Assembly (NCBI RefSeq): GCF_006345805.1
Contig: NW_021835359.1
Span: forward strand, 1-40,206
DNA length: 40,206 bases
Origin: Octopus sinensis
Taxonomy: Eukaryota
Direction of reading: 5' to 3'
Positions 3,731 through 28,390 of the stretch are shown here, in pieces (positions within the stretch are counted from its first letter, which is position 1; every line of letters begins with the position of its first letter). The notes under the pieces are model-generated. The model was not told the origin of the DNA. It did no database searches and saw only the letters and a program-made list of their open reading frames with translations. A program made the translations under genes and the position numbers.

Positions 3731-5220
3731 CTTCTATTCCAAACTTGAAGTTCCACGTATTATAGAAGCAGTAGGTCTTGACTACGTGAAAGAGTTGAGG
3801 CCGAACGATATAACACCTCAAGGCGGCGAGCTGGCAGAAACGTTAGCACGCCGGGCGAAATGTTTAGCGATATTTCGTCTGCCGTTACGTTCTGAGTTCA
3901 AATTCCGCCGAGGTCGACTTCTATTCCAAACTTGAAGTTCCACGTATTATAGAAGCAGTAGGTCTTGACTATGTGGAAGGGTTGAGGCCGAACGATATAA
4001 CACCTCAAGGCGGCGAGCTGGCAGAAACGTTAGCACGCCGGGCGAAATGTTTAGCGATATATCGTCTGCCGTTACGTTCTGAGTTCAAATTCCGCCGAGG
4101 TCGACTTCTATTCCAAACTTGAAGTTCCACGTATTATAGAAGCAGTAGGTCTTGACTATGTGGAAGGGTTGAGGCCGAACGATATAACACCTCAAGGCGG
4201 CGAGCTGGCAGAAACGTTAGCACGCCGGGCGAAATGTTTAGCGATATATCGTCTGCCGTTACGTTCTGAGTTCAAATTCGCCGAGGTCGACTTCTATTCC
4301 AAACTTGAGTTTCCACGTATTATAGAAGCAGTAGGTCTTGACTATGTGGAAGGGTTGAGGCCGAACGATATATAACACCTCAAGGCGGCAAGCTGGCAGA
4401 AACGTTAGTACGCCGGGCGAAATGTTTAGCGATATTTCGTCTGCCGTTACGTTCTGAGTTCAAAATCCGCCGAGGTCGACTTCTATTCCAAACTTGAAGT
4501 TCCACGTATTATAGAAGCAGTAGTCTTGACTATGTGGAAGGGTGAGGCCAAACGATATAACACCTCAAGGCGGTGAGCTGGTAGAAACGTTAGCACGCCG
4601 GGCGAAATGTTTAGCGATATTTCGTCTGCCGTTACGTTCTGAGTTCAAATTCCGCCGAGGTCGACTTCTATTCCAAACTTGAAGTTCCACGTATTATAGA
4701 AGCAGTAGGTCTTGACTATGTGGAGGGTGAGGCCAAACGTATATAAACACCTAAGGCGGTGAGCTGGTAGAAACGTTAGCACGCCGGGCGAAATGTTTAG
4801 CGATATTTCGTCTGCCGTTACGTTCTGAGTTCAAATTCCGCCGAGGTCGACTTCTATTCCAAACTTGAAGTTCCACGTATTATAGAAGCAGTAGGTCTGA
4901 CTATGTGGAAGGGTTGAGGCCAACGATATAAACACCAAGGTGGCGAGCTGGCATAAACGTTAGCCACGCCGGGCGAAATGTTAGCGATATATCGTCTGCC
5001 GTTACGTTCTGAGTTCAAATTCCGCCGAGGTCGACTTCTATTCCAACTTGAAGTTCCACGTATTATAGAAGCAGTAGGTCTTGACTATGTGGAAGGGTTG
5101 ATACAAACGATATAACACCTCAAGGCGGTGAGCTGATAGAAACGTTAGCACGCCGGGCGAAATGTTTAGCGATATTTCGTCTGCCGTTACGTTCTGAGTT
5201 CAAATTCCGCCGAGGTCGAC
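3731..5220 (+). repeat. Tandem array of 8 x ~187-bp units (about 90 bp of flank plus about 97 bp of SINE-A 5' head)
   Basis: Units start near 3731, 3918, 4105, 4291, 4480, 4665, 4851 and 5035 and are near-identical. The last unit runs on into the complete SINE. Confidence 0.97.
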
Positions 5221-5354
5221 TTTGCCTTTCATCCTTTCGGGGTCGATAAATTAAGAACCAGTTACGCACTGGGGTCGATGCAAACGACTTAATCCGTTTG
5301 TCTGTCCTTGTTTGTCCCCTCTGTGTTTAGCCCCTTGTGGGTAGTAAAGAAATA
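5122..5354 (+). mobile_element. tRNA-derived SINE, family A (A1 tail), full length
   Basis: Head GGCGGTGAGCTG..GAGTTCAAATTCCGCC, body GCCTTTCATCCTTTCGGGGTCGATAAA, tail GTAGTAAAGAAATA. A 13-bp TSD GATATAACACCTC lies at 5109-5121 and 5355-5367. Confidence 0.92.
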
Positions 5355-5785
5355 GATATAACACCTCCAACTTGGAAATGAAGTATTGGTCTCATTCGGA
5401 GCACGACACTGACCGACATTTTCTCAGAGTTTCTCTGGACCTGAGTGCAACGGGGGATGCCTACACGACTAGCAGGAACTCAACTTCCAAGATTCTCTCT
5501 GAATTGAAACTGATGTTATCTGAGGTGTTGGACGAGTCCTTGAAGGCCACTCTGCTCCGCTGCAACAAAAGATTTCAACTCCTAACACAAGGGAGCAGTT
5601 CGATGTATCTCTTCTTCTTGTGCTGTCGCAATATGAAATACCAAATGAAAAAAATAGGAAGATAAAAACTGATGAGTTTGGAACAGGGTTTTCTCTTCAG
5701 TTTCATTTCTTAGAATCTACAAGAAAAACAAACCAAACATCAAAATGGTAACCGGCGTAACAAATACAAGATTACTGAATTTAGC

Positions 5786-6473: not shown

Positions 6474-6754
6474 TAAAGTGGTAGAATTATAAATTCTAAA
6501 ACATCTGGAAATACATTCTGAATATCTGTTTGGAATAAATAAAATAATATTTCTGTTTTGATAGCTGTATGTTACTTTATATATTTTTGTGGTATTAATT
6601 CGAAGTATAAAAAAGCTTTTTTCCCATCACCTAAAGTTTTTCCACAATTTAATGAAAAGCATACCATAATTTGTAGGTAAATCCAGGTATGGGAGGACAA
6701 AATAATAAAATAAATAATAAACATGATTTTGATATTTTAAAAATAATAAATATT

Positions 6755-7156
6755 AGGCGCAGGAGTGGCTGTGTGGTAAGTAGCCATCTAACCAACCACA
6801 TGGTTCTGGGTTCAGTCCCACTGCGTGGCATCTTGGGCAAGTGTCTTCTGCTATAGCCCCGGGCCGACCAATGCCTTGTGAGTGGATTTGGTAGACGGAA
6901 ACTGAAAGAAGCCTGTCGTATATATATATGTGTGTGTGTTTGTGTGTCTGTGTTGTCCCCCTAGCATTGCTTGACAACCGATGCTGGTGTGTTTACGTCC
7001 CCGTAACTTAGCGGTTCGGCAAAAGAGACCGATAGAATAATTACTGGGCTTACAAAGAATAAGATTTGGGGTCGATTTGCTCGACTAAAGGCGGTGCTCC
7101 AGCATGGCCGCAGTCAAATGACTGAAACAAGTAAAAGAGTAAAAGAGTAAAAGAGT
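6755..7156 (+). mobile_element. tRNA-derived SINE, family B, full length
   Basis: A box TGGCTGTGTGG, B box GGTTCAGTCCC, internal (TA)n(TG)n and a (TAAAAGAG)n tail. Four other near-full copies occur in the window. Confidence 0.92.
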
Positions 7157-7479: not shown

Positions 7480-7885
7480 CTCTTTTTTTACTCTTTTTAC
7501 TTGTTTCAGTCATTTGACTGCGGCCATGCTGGAGCACCGCCTTTAGTCGAACAAATCGACCCCGGGACTTATTCTTTGTGAGCCCAGTACTTATTCTATC
7601 GGTCTCTTTTGCCGAACCGCTAAGTGACGGGGACGTAAACACACCAGCATCGGTTGTCAAGCAATGCTAGGGGGACAAACACAGACACATAAACACATAC
7701 ACTTATATATATACATATATACGACAGGCTTCTTTCAGTTTCCGTCTACCAAACCTACTCACAAGGCATTGGTCGGCCCGGGGCTATAGCAGAAGACACT
7801 TGCCCAAGATGCCAAGCAGTGGGACTGAACCCGGAACCATGTGGTTGGTTAGCAAGCTACTTACCACACAGCCACTCCTGCGCCT
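7480..7885 (-). mobile_element. SINE family B, full length
   Basis: Reverse complement of 6755-7156 at high identity; it interrupts the transposase relic. Confidence 0.92.
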
Positions 7886-8594: not shown

Positions 8595-8853
8595 TTTACT
8601 CTTTTACTCTTTTACTTGTTTCAGTCATTTGACTGCGGCCATGCTGGAGCACCGCCTGTAGACGAGCAAATCGACCCTGGGAGTTATTCTGTGTAAGCCC
8701 AGTACTTATTCTATCGGTCTCTTTTGCCGAACCGCTAAGTGACGGGAACGTAAACACACCAGCATCAGTTGTCAAGCAATGCTAGGGGAAACAAAACACA
8801 GACACCAAACACACACAAATAATATATATAATATATATATATATATATATAGA

Positions 8854-8892
<39 letters not shown>

Positions 8893-9060
8893 TACGACAG
8901 GCTTCTTTCAGTTTTTCCATCTACCAAATCCACTCACAAGGCATTGGTCGGCCCGGGGCTATAGCAGAAGACACTTGCCCAAGATGCCACGCGGTGGGAC
9001 TGAACCCGGAACCATGTGGTTGGTTAGCAAGCTACTTACCACACAGCCACTCCTGCGCCT
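8595..9060 (-). mobile_element. SINE family B, full length
   Basis: Homologous to 6755-7156. CCTCT is repeated at 8587-8591 and 9058-9062, and removal restores the codons KHQRNITKLV. Confidence 0.92.
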
Positions 9061-13136: not shown

Positions 13137-13223
<87 letters not shown>

Positions 13224-13384
13224 TACGACGGGCTTCTTTCAGTTTCCGTCTACCAAATCCATTCACAAGGCTTTGGTCGGCCTGAGGCTATAATAGAAAA
13301 CACCTGCCCAGGGTGCCACGCAGTGGGAATGAACCCGGAATCATTTGGTTGATAAGCACGTACTACACAGCCTCTCCTGCGCCT
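12929..13384 (-). mobile_element. SINE family B with expanded internal (TA)n
   Basis: Homologous to 6755-7156 but more diverged. Confidence 0.9.
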
Positions 13385-13386
13385 AC

Positions 13387-13427
<41 letters not shown>

Positions 13428-17351: not shown

Positions 17352-17822
17352 AATTTCTTAATAGCATGTTGTTGTTATATTTTTGTAACATTAACGGTTT
17401 GTTTCTAATTGTTTTGTTTCGCTGTACAATACACGTGGTTCTGCACATTTAAGTTCACTCAGCCGCGGAGAAACAACTTCAAGAATCGAAGAATGCTTTA
17501 TCTGAAAGCATAATTTACATATATTACGCAAACTAGCATCTCATTAGCGACGTTTAATCATGTGAAATATGTAAATTGATACAACAGATTAATTATATAT
17601 TTAGGAAAGTTAAAAGTTACTCAGTCATAGAGTTTCCTTGAAAATAGAGAGAAGAATGAAATATTTCTTCCATCAATCAAAATATTTCTAAACTATTTTA
17701 GAATATTTTAAACAAAAGTGTATAAACTCTTTAAAATGCATGATCTGTAGTTTTCATTATCTTGTTTTTCTTCTCCTCCAGATCAACTTTGACTGAGGAA
17801 ACCAACAAGCTAAGCTGTATAT

Positions 17823-18241
17823 ACCTATTTCTTTACTACCCACAAGGGGCTAAACACAGACGGGACAAACAAGGACAGACATAGGTATTAAGTCGATTAC
17901 ATCGACCCCAATGCGTAACTGGTACTTAATTTATCGACCCCGAAAGGATGAAAGGCAAAGTCGTCCTCGGCGGAATTTGAACTCAGAACGTAACGCCAGA
18001 CGAAATATGGCTACGCATTTCGCCCGGCGTGCTAACGTTTCTGCCAGCTCGCCGCTAAGCTGTATATACCTAGTCATATTTTTTCGGTGACATTGCACGT
18101 TGGACCACCTTATCCTTGTTGAATGCAATAACCTACGATTTGAGGGAGATTTGGTTACTATTTCTTGTAATTTCAGCAACCGTGTAGACGCTATCTATCT
18201 ATCTATCTCTTTTTTTCTCTCTCTCTCTCTCTCTTTCTCTC

Positions 18242-18285
<44 letters not shown>

Positions 18286-18705
18286 CTTTTAGCCTCGAAC
18301 TGATTATTTGAATTTTATTAAATGTTAACCTATTTCATTATTACCCACTAGGGGCTAAACACAGAGGGGACAAACAAGGACAGACATAGGTATTAAGTCG
18401 ATTACATCGACCCCAGTGCGTAACTGGTACTTAATTTATCGACCCCGAAAGGATGAAAGGCAAAGTCGACCTCGGCGGAATTTGAACTCACAACGTAACG
18501 CAGACGAAATACCGCTAAGCATTTCGCCCGGCGTGCTAACGTTTCTGCCAGCTCGCCGCTAAGCTGTATATACCTAGTCATATTTTTTCGGTGACATTGC
18601 ACGTTGGACCACCTTATCCTTGTTGAATGCAATAACGTACGATTTGAAGGAGATTTGGTTACTATTTCTTGTAATTTCAGTAACCGTGTAGACGCTATCT
18701 ATCTA

Positions 18706-18754
<49 letters not shown>

Positions 18755-18791
18755 CTCTCTCTCTTTTCTCTCTCTCTCTCTTTCTCTCTTC

Positions 18792-18831
<40 letters not shown>

Positions 18832-18879
18832 CTCCTTTTAGCCTCGAACTGATTATTTGAATTTTATTAAATGTTAACC
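17823..18879. repeat. Tandem duplication of SINE-A plus 5' flank (second SINE copy at 18331-18557)
   Basis: Two units (17823-18330 and 18328-18879) share an identical SINE/flank junction. The unit junction has ACC microhomology, and (CT)n length differs between copies. Confidence 0.93.
17828..18053 (-). mobile_element. SINE family A1, full length
   Basis: A 19-bp TSD GCTAAGCTGTATATACCTA lies at 17809-17827 and 18054-18072. Confidence 0.92.
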
Positions 18880-19192
18880 GTACATTCACTTATAAGAAAT
18901 TCAGAACATAATATAATCGGAAACTTTATTTAATTTCTTCCCTCACACAAATCTCAGAGGAAGACAAAGACAAAACTCATCGCGAGAGACGTCGAAATAT
19001 CACAGACAGCTGGAAGACATATCACCATTCTTCGAACATTGAATAGCATCCTTGGAGAGAAATCTTTTACATAGAAATATTTCCGTAAAGGAATACTTCT
19101 GATCCGTCAATTCATGTTTAGTTTTATCGGAATTATACTCAAAAAAGGGAAAGCTATTGTCTTACTGACACAAGAATGAAAAGCATATTGTA

Positions 19193-22972: not shown

Positions 22973-23137
22973 AGGAGTGGCTGTGTGGTAAGTAGCTTGT
23001 TTACCAACCACATGGTTCTGGGTTCAGTCCCACTGCGAGGCATCTTGGGCAAGTGTCTTCTACTATAGCCTCGGGCCGACCAAAGCCTTGTGAGTGGATT
23101 TGTAGATGGAAACTGAAAGAAGCCCGTCGTATATATG

Positions 23138-23193
<56 letters not shown>

Positions 23194-23427
23194 GTGTGTG
23201 TGTGTGTGGTGTGTGTGTGTGTGTGTGTGTTTGTCCCCCTAGCATTGCTTGACAACCGATGCTGGTGTGTTTATGTCCCCGTCACTTAGCGGTTCGGCAA
23301 AACAGACCGATAGAATAAGTACTGGGCTTACAAAGAATAAGTGCCGGGGCCGAGTTGCTCGATTAAAGGTGGTGCTCCAGCATGGCCGCAGTCAAATGAC
23401 TGAAACAAGTAAAAGAGTAAAAGAGTA
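22973..23427 (+). mobile_element. SINE family B with expanded internal (TG)n
   Basis: Homologous to 6755-7156 and ends in a (TAAAAGAG)n tail. Confidence 0.92.
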
Positions 23428-23477
23428 ATATCAAAAACAACATCACTACGCTATCACAGCAAAGGAAAAGCGGTATG

Positions 23478-24187: not shown

Positions 24188-24571
24188 CTTTTCTACTCTA
24201 GGCACAAAGCCCAAAATTTTGGGGGGAGGGGCCCAGTCGATTAGATCTACCCCAGTACGCAACTGGTACTTAATTTATCGACCTCGAAAGGATGAAAGGC
24301 AAAGTCGACTTCGATGGAAATTGAACTCAGAACGTAAAGACAGACGAAATACCTATTTCTTTACTACTCACGAGGGGCTAAACACAGAGGAAACAAACAA
24401 GGACCGACAAACGGATTAAGTCGATTACATTGACCCTAGTGCGTAACTGGTACTTAAGTTATCGAATCCGAAAGGAGGAAAGGCAAAGTCGACCCCTGCG
24501 GAATTTGAACTCAGAACGTACCGCTAAACATTTCGTCCGGCGTGCTACCATTTCTGCCAGCTCGCCGCCTT
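24188..24571 (-). mobile_element. Dimeric SINE: full A1 monomer fused to a 5'-truncated A2 monomer
   Basis: The junction near 24353 reads ..AAAGAAATAG|GTATTTCGTCTG.. on the minus strand. One degenerate 18-bp TSD (24170-24187 and 24572-24589, 15 of 18 matching) brackets both monomers. Confidence 0.85.
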
Positions 24572-25672
24572 AATTCATACACAAATATTGCAATCCATAT
24601 AGAAATATAGGAACTTCATTTTCGAAAATTAATATTTCGAATTTGGTTGGTTAGACAGACGTAGCGAAGTATCTGTTGACCATGTAGTATCTCCGAAATG
24701 AGAATCTTTCTGAAAGATTTCCTGAATAATTATACGCAGAACAAGAGATTTGATATTTCAGGTAACAAGTATTAATATCATAATGAAAAATTTCGTGTAG
24801 ATGTGTGTCTTCTATACTAAGAACGATGGTTCCAGATAAAGATTAAGGAACTTTTTGTTCTGTTTCTTCATTTCAACTATGCACAATGGGAAACAAATAG
24901 TAATCTTTTCATGTAAAAAATAAGATCAACGCCATTTTCGGTGTGTTAGGATTACGTCTATTGTTAAAAAAGTTAATGCAATTTATTTAAGAGATGTTCA
25001 ATAGAGTTATTAACCAACTGTACTAAATTACCCTTGTCGATCATTCTTTGAACGTATTGACTATTCTTAATACTTTCCTTATATGTTCTGTGCAGCAAAA
25101 AGGTTTGGAATCACCAGACAACGCTGATGTCTTTTATTTAGAAAATTTTGCCTTTAAATTGTAAATACGAACGCGAGCGACTCTAACAAGAAAGAAAATA
25201 ATAACAGACAAGGATTCTGGATTATTTTTCCTGTTCTTTTACTTAATTTTTGAGACTCGGGTTCATTTTTAGTATTCTCGTATGTATGTATGTATGTATG
25301 TTTGTATGTATGTATGTATACATGTATGCATTTATGCATGTATATCAATATTCTTTATTAGCTAATTCTTTTGGTGACAATGATAACTATTAGTCATTTC
25401 AAATTGTTAATATCTCCTTTCATTTCTTTTCTTTTCCCCGCTAATAATTCTTTGAACGTATTGACTATTCTTAGTACTTCCCTTATATTTTCTGTGCAGC
25501 AAAAAGGTTTGGAATCACCAGACAGCGTTGGTGTCTTTTGACAATACATTTCTTCCGTCTTTTATTTAGAAAATTTTACCTTTAAATTGTAAATACGAAT
25601 GTGAGCGACTCTAACAAGAAAGAAAATAATAACAGACAAAATAAGTATCATAGAAAGAGACAAAAAAGAAAA

Positions 25673-26232: not shown

Positions 26233-27352
26233 GTATGTATGTATGTATGTATGTATGTATGTATGTATGTATGTATGTATGCATGTATGCATGCATGTAT
26301 GTATGTATGTATGTATGTATGCATGTATTCATGTATGCATGCATGCATGTATGTATGTATGTATGCATGCATGTATGTATGTATGTATGTATGTATGTAT
26401 TTGTATGTATGTATGTATGTATGTATGTATGCATGTATGCATGCATGTATGTATGTATGTATGTATGTATGCATGTATTCATGTATGCATGCATGCATGT
26501 ATGTATGTATGTATGCATGCATGTATGTATGTATGTATGTATGCATGTATGCATGCATGAATGTATGCATGCATGAATGTATGTATGTATGTATGTTTGT
26601 ATGTATGTATTCATGTATGCATGCATGCATGTATGTATGTATGTATGCATGCATGTATGTATGTATGCATGCATGTATGCATGCATGAATGTATGCATGC
26701 ATGAATGTATGTATGTATGTATGTTTGTATGTATGTATGTATGTATGTATGCATGCATGCATGTATGTATGTATGTATGCATGCATGCATGTATGTATGT
26801 ATGTATGCATGCATGCATGTATGTATGTATGTATGTATGTATTTGTATGTATGTATGTATGTATGTATGTATGCATGTATGTATGTTTGTATGTATGTAT
26901 GTATGTATGTATGTATGATGCATGTATTCATGTATGCATGCATGCATGTATGTATGTATGTATGCATGCATGTATGTATGTATGTATGTATGCATGCATG
27001 TATGCATGCATGAATGTATGTATGTATGTATGTTTGTATGTATGTATGTATGTATGTATGTATGTATGCATGCATGCATGTATGTATGTATGTATGTATG
27101 CATGCATGCATGTATGTATGTATGTATGTATGTATGTATGTATTTGTATGTATGTATGTATGTATGTATGTATGTATGTATGTATGTATGTATGTATGTA
27201 TGTAGTTTGTATGTATGTATGTATGTATGCATGTATGTATGTATGTATGTATGCATGTATGTATGTATGTATGTATGTATGCATGTATGTATGTATGTAT
27301 GTATGTATGTGTGTATGTATGTATGTATACATGTATGCATGTATGCATGTAT
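26233..27352. repeat. (TATG)/(CATG) tetranucleotide tract, ~1.1 kb
   Basis: Direct reading. Confidence 0.96.
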
Positions 27353-27605
27353 ATCAATATTCTTTATTAGCTAATTCTTTTGGTGACAATGATAACTATT
27401 AGTCATTTCAAATTGTTTAATATTTCCCTTCAATTCTTTTTCTTTTTCCCGCTAATAATTAGCATATGCCATTTCCATTACAAAATAATATATTTCTAAT
27501 ATATTTCCTCCAGCAATTTCAGTACTGGTATTCTTATCCCTTTAAATTTCAATATCTTTATCGTTAACGATATAGATATCAACGAATACCTCAGTGACAT
27601 TATTA

Positions 27606-28039: not shown

Positions 28040-28170
28040 TTCCAATTTTGGCAAAGGCCAATAATTTTGAGGGGACAGTGTATTACTTGTATTACTCGGT
28101 ACTGTCCACCTGAGCACTTCACTGGTACTTTATTTTATCGACTCAGAAGGATAAAAGGCAAATTTAACTT
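28040..28170 (-). mobile_element. Decayed SINE-A body and tail running into the minisatellite
   Basis: Reads ACTGGTACTTTATTTTATCGACTCAGAAGGATAAAAGGCAAA. Confidence 0.7.
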
Positions 28171-28390
28171 CGATCAAAGTTAACCTCGATCAAAGTTAAC
28201 TTCGATCAAAGTTAACCTTGATCAAAGTTAACCGCGATCAAAGCTAAACGTGATCAAAGTTAACCGCGATCAAAGCTAAACGTGATCAAAGTTAACCTCG
28301 ATCAAAGTTAACCGCGATCAAAGTTAACCTCGATCAAAGTTAACCGCGATCAAAGCTAAACGTGATCAAAGTTAACTGCGATCAAATTTA
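28159..28390. repeat. 16-bp minisatellite (GATCAAAGTTAACCTC variants), ~14.5 units
   Basis: GATCAAA recurs exactly every 16 bp from 28172 to 28380 (14 times). A 32-bp higher-order dimer occurs three times. Confidence 0.96.

What the first reader, a model, noticed from the sequence alone, without database searches (positions are those of the whole stretch)
3731..5367. Satellite of eight tRNA-like SINE heads alternating with a fixed spacer, with no Pol III terminator
Seen: each ~187-bp unit is ~90 bp of the original upstream flank plus the SINE-A head, cut at GAGGTCGA|CTT with CTT microhomology. Only the eighth unit keeps the SINE body and the second TSD copy, so amplification came after insertion. 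Each head keeps an A-box-like TGGCAGAAACG, the B box GAGTTCAAATTC, GGCGG/CCGCC acceptor-like pairing and a ~12-bp hairpin (CGGGCGAAATG..TATTTCGTCTG). I find no TTTT on the plus strand until 5419. Inference: this is a cluster of eight internal Pol III promoters/TFIIIC sites. It could give nested multimeric transcripts that RNase P/Z might cut into ~90-nt spacer RNAs, or act as an insulator. The spacer may come from a dead transposase, so such RNAs would be transposon-derived.
Basis: partly seen in the sequence, partly recalled or inferred. Interest (0 to 1): 0.75.

Follow-up and report, generated by a model that had tools for sequence, protein, structure and literature searches.

The report
Young SINE-head tandem repeat, one locus
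In this assembly, the front of one very common jumping repeat (SINE) and the 90 bases before it stand eight times in a row at a single place; this is likely a recent, neutral copying accident of a kind already described in reptiles and humans, and likely not a working set of promoters or an RNA-cutting device.

Summary
The array is in the assembly as described: eight ~187-bp units of ~90 bp left flank plus ~98 bp SINE head, one fixed joint with CTT microhomology, and body and second TSD only after unit 8. It was found at one locus. The motif claims are overstated: the exact A box is in 4 of 8 units (consensus 7 of 8), the B box misses consensus in all 8, and all five motifs co-occur in 1 of 8. 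The head lacks a tRNA acceptor/T-stem stack. A 33-mer of the head occurs 15,912 times in the genome, so the boxes belong to the family. Lack of TTTT is unremarkable, and 7 of 8 heads hold TGTTT, a non-canonical human terminator. No transposase match was found. Four other flank-plus-SINE duplications turned up; 4 of 5 joints show 2-3 bp microhomology. Contig depth suggests several copies in one sample and one per chromosome in two others; no contig bridges the joint. The units mix two variant types that look allelic elsewhere. Best reading: microhomology-mediated duplication, then unequal exchange, giving an early SINE-derived satellite. The scan noted a similar SINE-head satellite before on other DNA.

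The parts
3731..5222 (+). Tandem array, 8 units of 184-189 bp (flank + SINE head), ending in the shared CTT
   Evidence: TRF; unit starts and alignment
3731..3819 (+). Original left flank, the template of the spacer; continuous with unique upstream DNA; found at one locus in the genome
   Evidence: contigs of other runs run through it from the left flank
3731..3733 (+). Left microhomology arm CTT (right arm 5220-5222)
3807..3819 (+). Left target-site duplication GATATAACACCTC, copied into the spacers (exact in 5 of 8)
3820..3917 (+). SINE head of unit 1 (family positions 1-98)
3832..3842 (+). A-box-like motif of unit 1 (exact in 4 of 8 units, consensus in 7 of 8)
3852..3881 (+). Long predicted hairpin of the head; holds TGTTT (3861) and TATTT (3871)
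3894..3905 (+). B-box-like motif of unit 1 (exact in 7 of 8; last C of GWTCRAnnC displaced in all)
4480..5219 (+). Stretch holding the type-B units 5, 6 and 8, which share A3803, T3827 and T3835 (unit-1 numbering); unit 7 between them is of the other type
   Evidence: the same type appears as a contig
5122..5354 (+). The one full-length SINE (head of unit 8 plus body), about 93% like dispersed copies; its A box misses consensus
5355..5367 (+). Right target-site duplication
5419..5422 (+). First TTTT on the plus strand after the array

Best explanation
This is a single-locus tandem repeat of 187 bp made of a SINE's own left flank and its first 98 bases, likely born after the SINE inserted by one microhomology-mediated duplication at CTT, likely expanded by unequal exchange, and likely neutral. 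Steps: (1) An ordinary copy of a very abundant SINE inserted and left a 13-bp TSD (shown). (2) The segment between the CTT in the flank and the CTT just behind the B box was doubled at DNA level (joint and microhomology shown; slippage or repair is inferred). (3) The doublet grew by misaligned recombination. At least one exchange was probably between homologous chromosomes, because the array mixes two linked variant types that look like single-copy alleles in other samples (mixture shown; allelic status inferred from contig depth). (4) The A and B boxes and the hairpin came along as passengers and show no sign of being protected (inferred from few changes).
For: The same joint stands in all 7 junctions, and the spacer equals the upstream flank over about 90 bases. 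One TSD pair encloses the last copy. A3870 is in 8 of 8 units but in 11 of 145 family heads, so all units come from one SINE copy. The spacer and the right flank were each found at one place. The same architecture recurs: L027 (about 71 flank + 109 head, x2, 99%), L067 (TSD + 125, x4, 99%), L021 (12 + 167, x2) and a 504-bp duplication in this window. Exact microhomologies are 3, 3, 2, 3 and 0 bp, so 4 of 5 joints have at least 2 bp, against 0.16-0.18 per joint by chance (my binomial arithmetic gives about 0.003-0.004; small, hand-picked set). In run X3 the spacer splits at 3803 into contigs with 3 and 6 differences from unit 1, the substitution counts of unit types 2/3 and 5, at depths 79.4 and 66.7 against 59.5 for the flank contig. 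In X2 the same 75-nt type-B contig has 29.8 against 51.2. In X8 one 885-nt contig runs through at 56.5, like unrelated contigs of 566-1,545 nt at 54-56. Four of 9 head substitutions fall in the 23 box bases. Known kind: PMC10702118, PMC3389668, PMC13167724.
Against: No listed contig bridges the head-to-spacer joint in any of the 4 runs laid on it, and no go-back joint is listed. The tables were cut and contigs drop rare links, so this is not proof of absence, but the joint has no support outside the assembly. X3's summed depth suggests about 5 copies per diploid genome rather than 9-16. The tool warns that contig depth is no copy number, and X3 may be the source sample. The three bases peculiar to unit 1 were not seen in X1 or X3. 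Twelve indel columns in units 3-8 look like long-read error, so unit order and some variants may be wrong. The one differing base in the X7 and X8 contigs was not named by the tool. A single 3-bp microhomology arises by chance 5% of the time. Neutrality is inferred: no RNA or ChIP data were examined.
Confidence: 0.78

Rival explanations
1. The array is wholly or largely an assembly artefact: two alleles of one SINE insertion, or a short array, were strung out by long-read assembly and polishing.
For: No contig bridges the joint in 4 of 4 runs. The two unit types look allelic in X2. There are 12 indel columns, and the unit-1 bases are unseen in X1 and X3. The window is a whole 40-kb contig.
Against: In X3 both types are each deeper than the flank contig (79.4 and 66.7 against 59.5), unlike X2 (29.8 against 51.2). 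Joining two alleles would give two units, not eight with one fixed microhomology joint. The same architecture with microhomology lies at four other loci.
Confidence: 0.12
2. One reading: a functional cluster of Pol III promoters or TFIIIC sites that gives nested read-through RNAs cut by RNase P/Z into spacer RNAs, or acts as an insulator.
For: 7 of 8 heads fit the A-box consensus, the A-to-B start distance is 62 nt, and there is no T4 before 5419. The GGCGG/CCGCC helix and the long hairpin are predicted with p about 0.97. tRNA-like tandem repeats of amphibians are transcribed in vitro (PMC10702118 Background).
Against: There is no acceptor/T-stem stack, which human RNase P recognises (PMC10424219 passage). 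No tRNA was called. The B box misses consensus in 8 of 8. TGTTT is in 7 of 8 heads. The family has 15,912 identical head 33-mers. The array looks absent in X2 and X8. In humans only a tiny share of Alus is estimated to be Pol III-transcribed (PMC4333407 abstract).
Confidence: 0.05
3. The array was built by repeated nested SINE insertion or by RNA-level multimerisation, as earlier scan notes propose for multimers in this genome.
For: Head-to-head dimers with 0-5 bases between are common among the fetched loci.
Against: Here every unit carries about 90 bp of this locus's own upstream flank, which lies before the SINE start, and a private head base. Only 2 of 61 loci passed the flank-duplication test automatically, and 4 with the two short-flank cases read by eye.
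Confidence: 0.03

Closest known systems
SINE-derived satellites (sSat1-3) of squamate reptiles, Vassetzky et al. 2023, PMC10702118 (read parts 1-4 of 5 of the text; supplements not opened)
   Same: Tandem units of 70-290 nt that cover part of a tRNA-related SINE, with a longer terminal unit reaching the SINE end. Sat3Gja2 repeats the 5' part plus about 30 nt of unknown origin. Short, locus-specific arrays, mixed sub-variants and copy-number differences at orthologous loci are all reported.
   Different: This one is in a mollusc (likely an octopus; from earlier scan notes and recall, not tested). The extra sequence is traced to the element's own flank and TSD. It is one locus, not a homogenised multi-locus family. 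The two variant types look like alleles.
Human TE-derived tandem repeats, Ahmed and Liang 2012, PMC3389668 (abstract and passages)
   Same: At least 7,276 tandem repeats derive from TEs; 136 repeat a partial Alu (mean 88.6 bp) next to a full Alu, discussed as duplication at the element's 5' end; growth is by local duplication.
   Different: Whether those units include flank was not stated in the passages I read. Here the unit is half flank and has eight copies.
Microhomology-mediated tandem duplication (MTD), Wei et al. 2026, PMC13167724 (abstract and section 10)
   Same: A single-copy segment between short microhomology arms doubles and may expand. Expanded loci are enriched for microhomology, and most evolve neutrally.
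   Different: Their expansion data are from microbes and reach 2-3 copies. The mechanism here is inferred from the joint alone.
tRNA-like tandem repeats of amphibians (PolIII/TAN, OAX, Rana/polIII), as summarised in the Background of PMC10702118 (originals not read)
   Same: Tandem units with tRNA-like Pol III promoter elements; PolIII/TAN is transcribed in vitro.
   Different: Those are described as repeat families (Rana/polIII up to 10% of the genome) with no confirmed parent SINE. This is one short array with its parent SINE attached and no evidence of transcription.
Octopus tRNA-derived SINEs of Ohshima and Okada 1994 (seen only as a reference and one mention in PMC4758252; the family name OK is recalled)
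   Same: From recall, this SINE resembles the OK family.
   Different: Not tested: no SINE library was available, so the family name is a lead only.

Membership tests
SINE-derived satellite (sSat, PMC10702118) | Head-to-tail repeat of a SINE portion, with a unit shorter than the SINE | tested here: met
   187-bp unit holding SINE positions 1-98 of about 235
SINE-derived satellite (sSat, PMC10702118) | A longer terminal unit that runs to the SINE end | tested here: met
   Unit 8 continues into the body and the right TSD
SINE-derived satellite (sSat, PMC10702118) | At least four middle monomers | tested here: inconclusive
   Six in the assembly; contig depth suggests several copies in X3 but no contig bridges the joint
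Mature multi-locus sSat family | The same unit spread and homogenised over many loci | tested here: not met
   The spacer was found at one place; filed as an early single-locus array only
Mature multi-locus sSat family | Subtelomeric location | not testable with these tools
   The window is a whole 40-kb contig with no chromosome context
Microhomology-mediated tandem duplication | A single-copy segment bounded by microhomology arms, with one arm at each joint | tested here: met
   Exact CTT; 5% chance for one joint
Microhomology-mediated tandem duplication | The 1x state exists in other individuals | tested here: inconclusive
   X2 and X8 contigs look single-copy by depth only
RNase P/Z-processed tRNA-like RNA | Acceptor stem stacked on a T arm | tested here: not met
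   3 of 7 and 3 of 5 pairs; forced fold +6.4 against -31.1 kcal/mol
RNase P/Z-processed tRNA-like RNA | Recognised as tRNA by a model | tested here: not met
   ARAGORN found 0 genes (run with the bacterial code); Rfam found no tRNA at E up to 10
Pol III type-2 promoter cluster | A box TRGYnnAnnnG and B box GWTCRAnnC | tested here: inconclusive
   A box fits in 7 of 8; B box pattern GTTCRANNC fits in 0 of 8, but the same B variant is in 115 of 145 fetched family heads, so it may work in this animal
Pol III type-2 promoter cluster | TFIIIC/Pol III occupancy and locus-specific transcripts | not testable with these tools
   No ChIP data; no RNA run was laid
Transposase pseudogene (spacer origin) | Similarity of the flanking reading frames to a transposase, or other copies in the genome | tested here: not met
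   P0001 and P0002: no Pfam family, no homologue among longer proteins, no other locus in the genome; P0002 gave one 20-residue hit to a repeat protein at E 9e-4. These are weak negatives for short, old fragments.

The most novel reading that the evidence does not exclude
A satellite caught just after birth: some animals carry one SINE at this site and others a stack of heads built by exchange between two alleles, with up to seven A-box-compliant promoters. If the stack is bound by TFIIIC or transcribed in proportion to copy number, it is a natural dosage series for how a SINE promoter cluster becomes a new Pol III locus or insulator, and the unique spacer serves as a barcode for its RNAs.
Probability: 0.06. 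Interest if true: 0.55.

Novelty: new member of a known kind. Interest (0 to 1): 0.17.

Why it matters
It matters little as a function. Its modest value is as a clean case of satellite birth: the parent insertion, TSD, breakpoint and microhomology are all readable, 2x and 4x versions of the same architecture lie elsewhere in the genome, and the units seem to record exchange between two alleles. The unique spacer also makes the locus testable for Pol III activity, which dispersed SINE copies rarely allow.

Tried and rejected
(1) tRNA identity of the head: ARAGORN found 0; Rfam gave two chance snoRNA hits outside the array, far below their cut-offs. Folding z-scores were -1.3 to -2.0 for heads and 0.0 for the spacer. 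(2) Transposase or gene origin of the flank: searches found nothing beyond the window and one repeat-protein hit. The protein Atlas gave no answer, so that look-alike check is open. Nine other frames of the window had no Pfam family. (3) Raw reads: X22 and X23 gave no depth on the flank and only 4 and 27 reads in all, at the SINE head, from about 3% of each run, so they are uninformative. (4) X7 and X1 are too shallow to judge (depth 12.7 and 6.6). (5) Expression: five RNA-guessed runs held 0.14-0.16 of the words and one RNA run 0.05. I did not lay them; they are no evidence either way and may reflect the SINE head alone. (6) In one search the printed 'all five' probability does not apply, because L021 has no exact microhomology (one search had scored it 3 with a mismatch allowed). 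One search's value for the window array was a script failure and was redone. (7) The first classification missed the first head in many loci and was replaced. (8) A look-up of earlier findings by sequence returned nothing. (9) Literature: 7 searches were answered. No title or abstract start listed was about a cephalopod SINE-derived satellite; this covers only the open-access library and those terms. Supplements of PMC10702118 and PMC3389668 were not opened and may show flank-containing units.

Full report
OBSERVATION. The window is a whole contig of a 2.7-Gb genome, rich in simple repeats and likely from an octopus (earlier scan notes, and my recall of the SINE; not tested). TRF finds a 187-bp period, 8.0 copies and 95% matches at 3731-5222. 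Units start at 3731, 3918, 4105, 4291, 4480, 4665, 4851 and 5035, and differ from each other at 1-19 aligned positions. Each is about 90 bp of left flank, ending in the TSD GATATAACACCTC, plus positions 1-98 of a SINE about 235 bp long. Only unit 8 continues into the body and the right TSD at 5355-5367. The joint shares exactly CTT between flank and SINE, next to a GGTC common to both. The first TTTT is at 5419.

MOTIF CLAIMS. The exact A motif is in 4 of 8 units, the B motif in 7 of 8, the 3' hairpin arm in 5 of 8, and all motifs together in 1 of 8. Against the consensus in PMC4333407 (passages), 7 of 8 fit the A box (unit 8, the full SINE, does not) and 0 of 8 fit GTTCRANNC. That B variant is in 115 of 145 family heads from fetched loci (a set biased by my search pattern), so it may function here. 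A 33-mer spanning the A box occurs 15,912 times exactly, with a control of 0: the boxes and hairpin belong to the family, not to this array. Of 25 substitution alleles, 16 lie in the spacer (some are alignment noise near indels) and 9 in the head, 4 of these in the 23 box bases. There is no sign of protection, on small numbers that may include sequencing error.

TERMINATORS. Lack of TTTT needs no explanation: 75% of 10,000 spacer shuffles, 243 of 437 window tiles and 3 of 3 other SINE copies checked lack it. TGTTT stands in 7 of 8 heads and TATTT in 5 of 8; both appear as non-canonical human terminators in Table 3 of PMC4333407. TATTT is the family state and must be read through by master copies. 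TGTTT rests on T3863, present in 9 of 145 family heads. Whether either stops this animal's Pol III is untested.

tRNA MIMICRY. ARAGORN and Rfam find no tRNA. In tRNA register the acceptor stem pairs 3 of 7 and the T stem 3 of 5. That fold costs +6.4 kcal/mol against -31.1 for the best fold, with pair probabilities of at most 0.007. Human RNase P recognises the acceptor-T stem stack (PMC10424219, passage), so cutting by RNase P is unlikely; for RNase Z this is my inference from recall.

SPACER ORIGIN. The spacer and the right flank were each found at one place in the genome (the tool notes that no match does not prove rarity). The open frames on both sides (80 and 101 codons) match no Pfam family, no longer protein and no other locus. 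A full HMMER scan with the right-hand one gave a single 20-residue hit to a repeat protein. A transposase origin has no support, though these negatives are weak.

ORIGIN. All 8 units carry A3870, seen in 11 of 145 family heads, so they descend from one insertion. They carry its upstream flank, so the duplication was in DNA. Three pattern searches for a head end followed 20-110 bases later by a head start gave 22, 32 and 13 matches. Loci were given for 65 of the 67. I dropped 4 (three second hits at one locus, one with the same coordinates and printed sequence as another) and classed 61, which still include one overlapping pair. Two of 61 passed the flank-duplication test (this array and L027); L067 (TSD + 125 SINE bases, 4 copies) and L021 fell under my 15-base cut-off and were added by eye. 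Ten of 61 have at least 2.5 copies by TRF; the next longest has 5. These counts are lower bounds, because exact motifs were required. A further duplication of about 280 bp flank plus a whole SINE lies at 17816-18893 in this window. Exact microhomologies at the five joints are 3, 3, 2, 3 and 0 bp; at 0.16-0.18 per joint, 4 or more of 5 has a chance of about 0.003-0.004 by my arithmetic. This fits microhomology-mediated tandem duplication (PMC13167724, abstract and section 10).

OTHER SAMPLES. Of 24 runs listed I laid 7: two raw-read runs, both uninformative, and five contig sets. Units 5, 6 and 8 share A3803, T3827 and T3835; units 2, 3 and 7 share A3874. In X3 the flank contig (depth 59.5) ends at 3802 and splits into contigs with 3 and 6 differences from unit 1, the substitution counts expected for unit types 2/3 and 5. 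Their depths are 79.4 and 66.7, together about 2.5 times the flank. In X2 the same 75-nt contig has 29.8 against 51.2, as for one allele. In X8 one contig runs from flank through spacer into the SINE at 56.5, like unrelated contigs at 54-56; eight copies would imply a flank depth near 35. This suggests an insertion shared by these samples, two alleles of it, and an array in only some animals. Against this: no listed contig bridges the joint in 4 of 4 runs, the tables were cut, contig depth is not copy number, X3 may be the source sample, the bases peculiar to unit 1 were not seen, and 12 indel columns suggest long-read error. I put a full or major artefact at 0.12 and treat 'eight' as unconfirmed.

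KNOWN KIND. PMC10702118 (parts 1-4 of 5) describes SINE-derived satellites in a survey of 56 reptile genomes: units of 70-290 nt, a longer terminal unit reaching the SINE end, a 5' variant with about 30 nt of unknown origin, mixed sub-variants, and copy-number differences at orthologous loci. PMC3389668 (passages) reports 136 human cases of a partial Alu repeated beside a full Alu. This array fits the early, single-locus stage and is not a mature family. An earlier, unreviewed scan note describes a 112-unit SINE-head satellite elsewhere in this genome; I did not check it.

VERDICT. The structure is as described, the mechanism is ordinary, and the functional reading is unsupported. What is slightly unusual is how readable the history is, including a probable mixture of two alleles. 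New member of a known kind; interest 0.17.

Noticed in passing
window 17816-18893 (minus strand): A second tandem duplication of about 504 bp: about 280 bp of upstream flank with a (GA)n run plus a nearly whole SINE, two copies 94.5% alike, GGT microhomology, TSD closed only after the last copy.
   Followed up: partly
L027 (G000:C10393), L067 (G000:C7), L021 (G000:C27): Flank-plus-SINE duplications at 2x, 4x and 2x; L027 and L067 are 99% identical between units, so probably young.
   Followed up: partly
L034-L063: Many truncated heads joined to a following head at SINE positions about 104-125 with 0-5 bases between, often at an A-rich joint; possibly a preferred insertion site in the SINE body.
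   Followed up: no
L023 (G000:C30) about 829-1702: Five copies of a 176-bp unit holding SINE positions 1-163, 96% alike.
   Followed up: no
L066 (G000:C7): A SINE interrupted at the same point as this array (position 98, after GAGGTCGACTT) by 65 unrelated bases and another head.
   Followed up: no
window 24235-24569 (minus strand): A SINE followed directly by a second piece starting near position 49-50, a joint also seen in several fetched loci.
   Followed up: no
window 28159-28390: A 16-bp minisatellite, 14.5 copies, 85% matches.
   Followed up: no
window 6746-7151, 7486-7885, 8595-9060, 13215-13394, 22973-23428: Copies of a second interspersed repeat, 85-96% alike, probably another SINE family.
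   Followed up: no
L022 1-989: An unrelated 148-bp satellite, at least 6.6 copies at 97%, near a SINE pair.
   Followed up: no
window 25280-25449 and 27289-27460: A direct repeat of about 170 bp, 95% alike, on either side of a long (GTAT)n tract.
   Followed up: no
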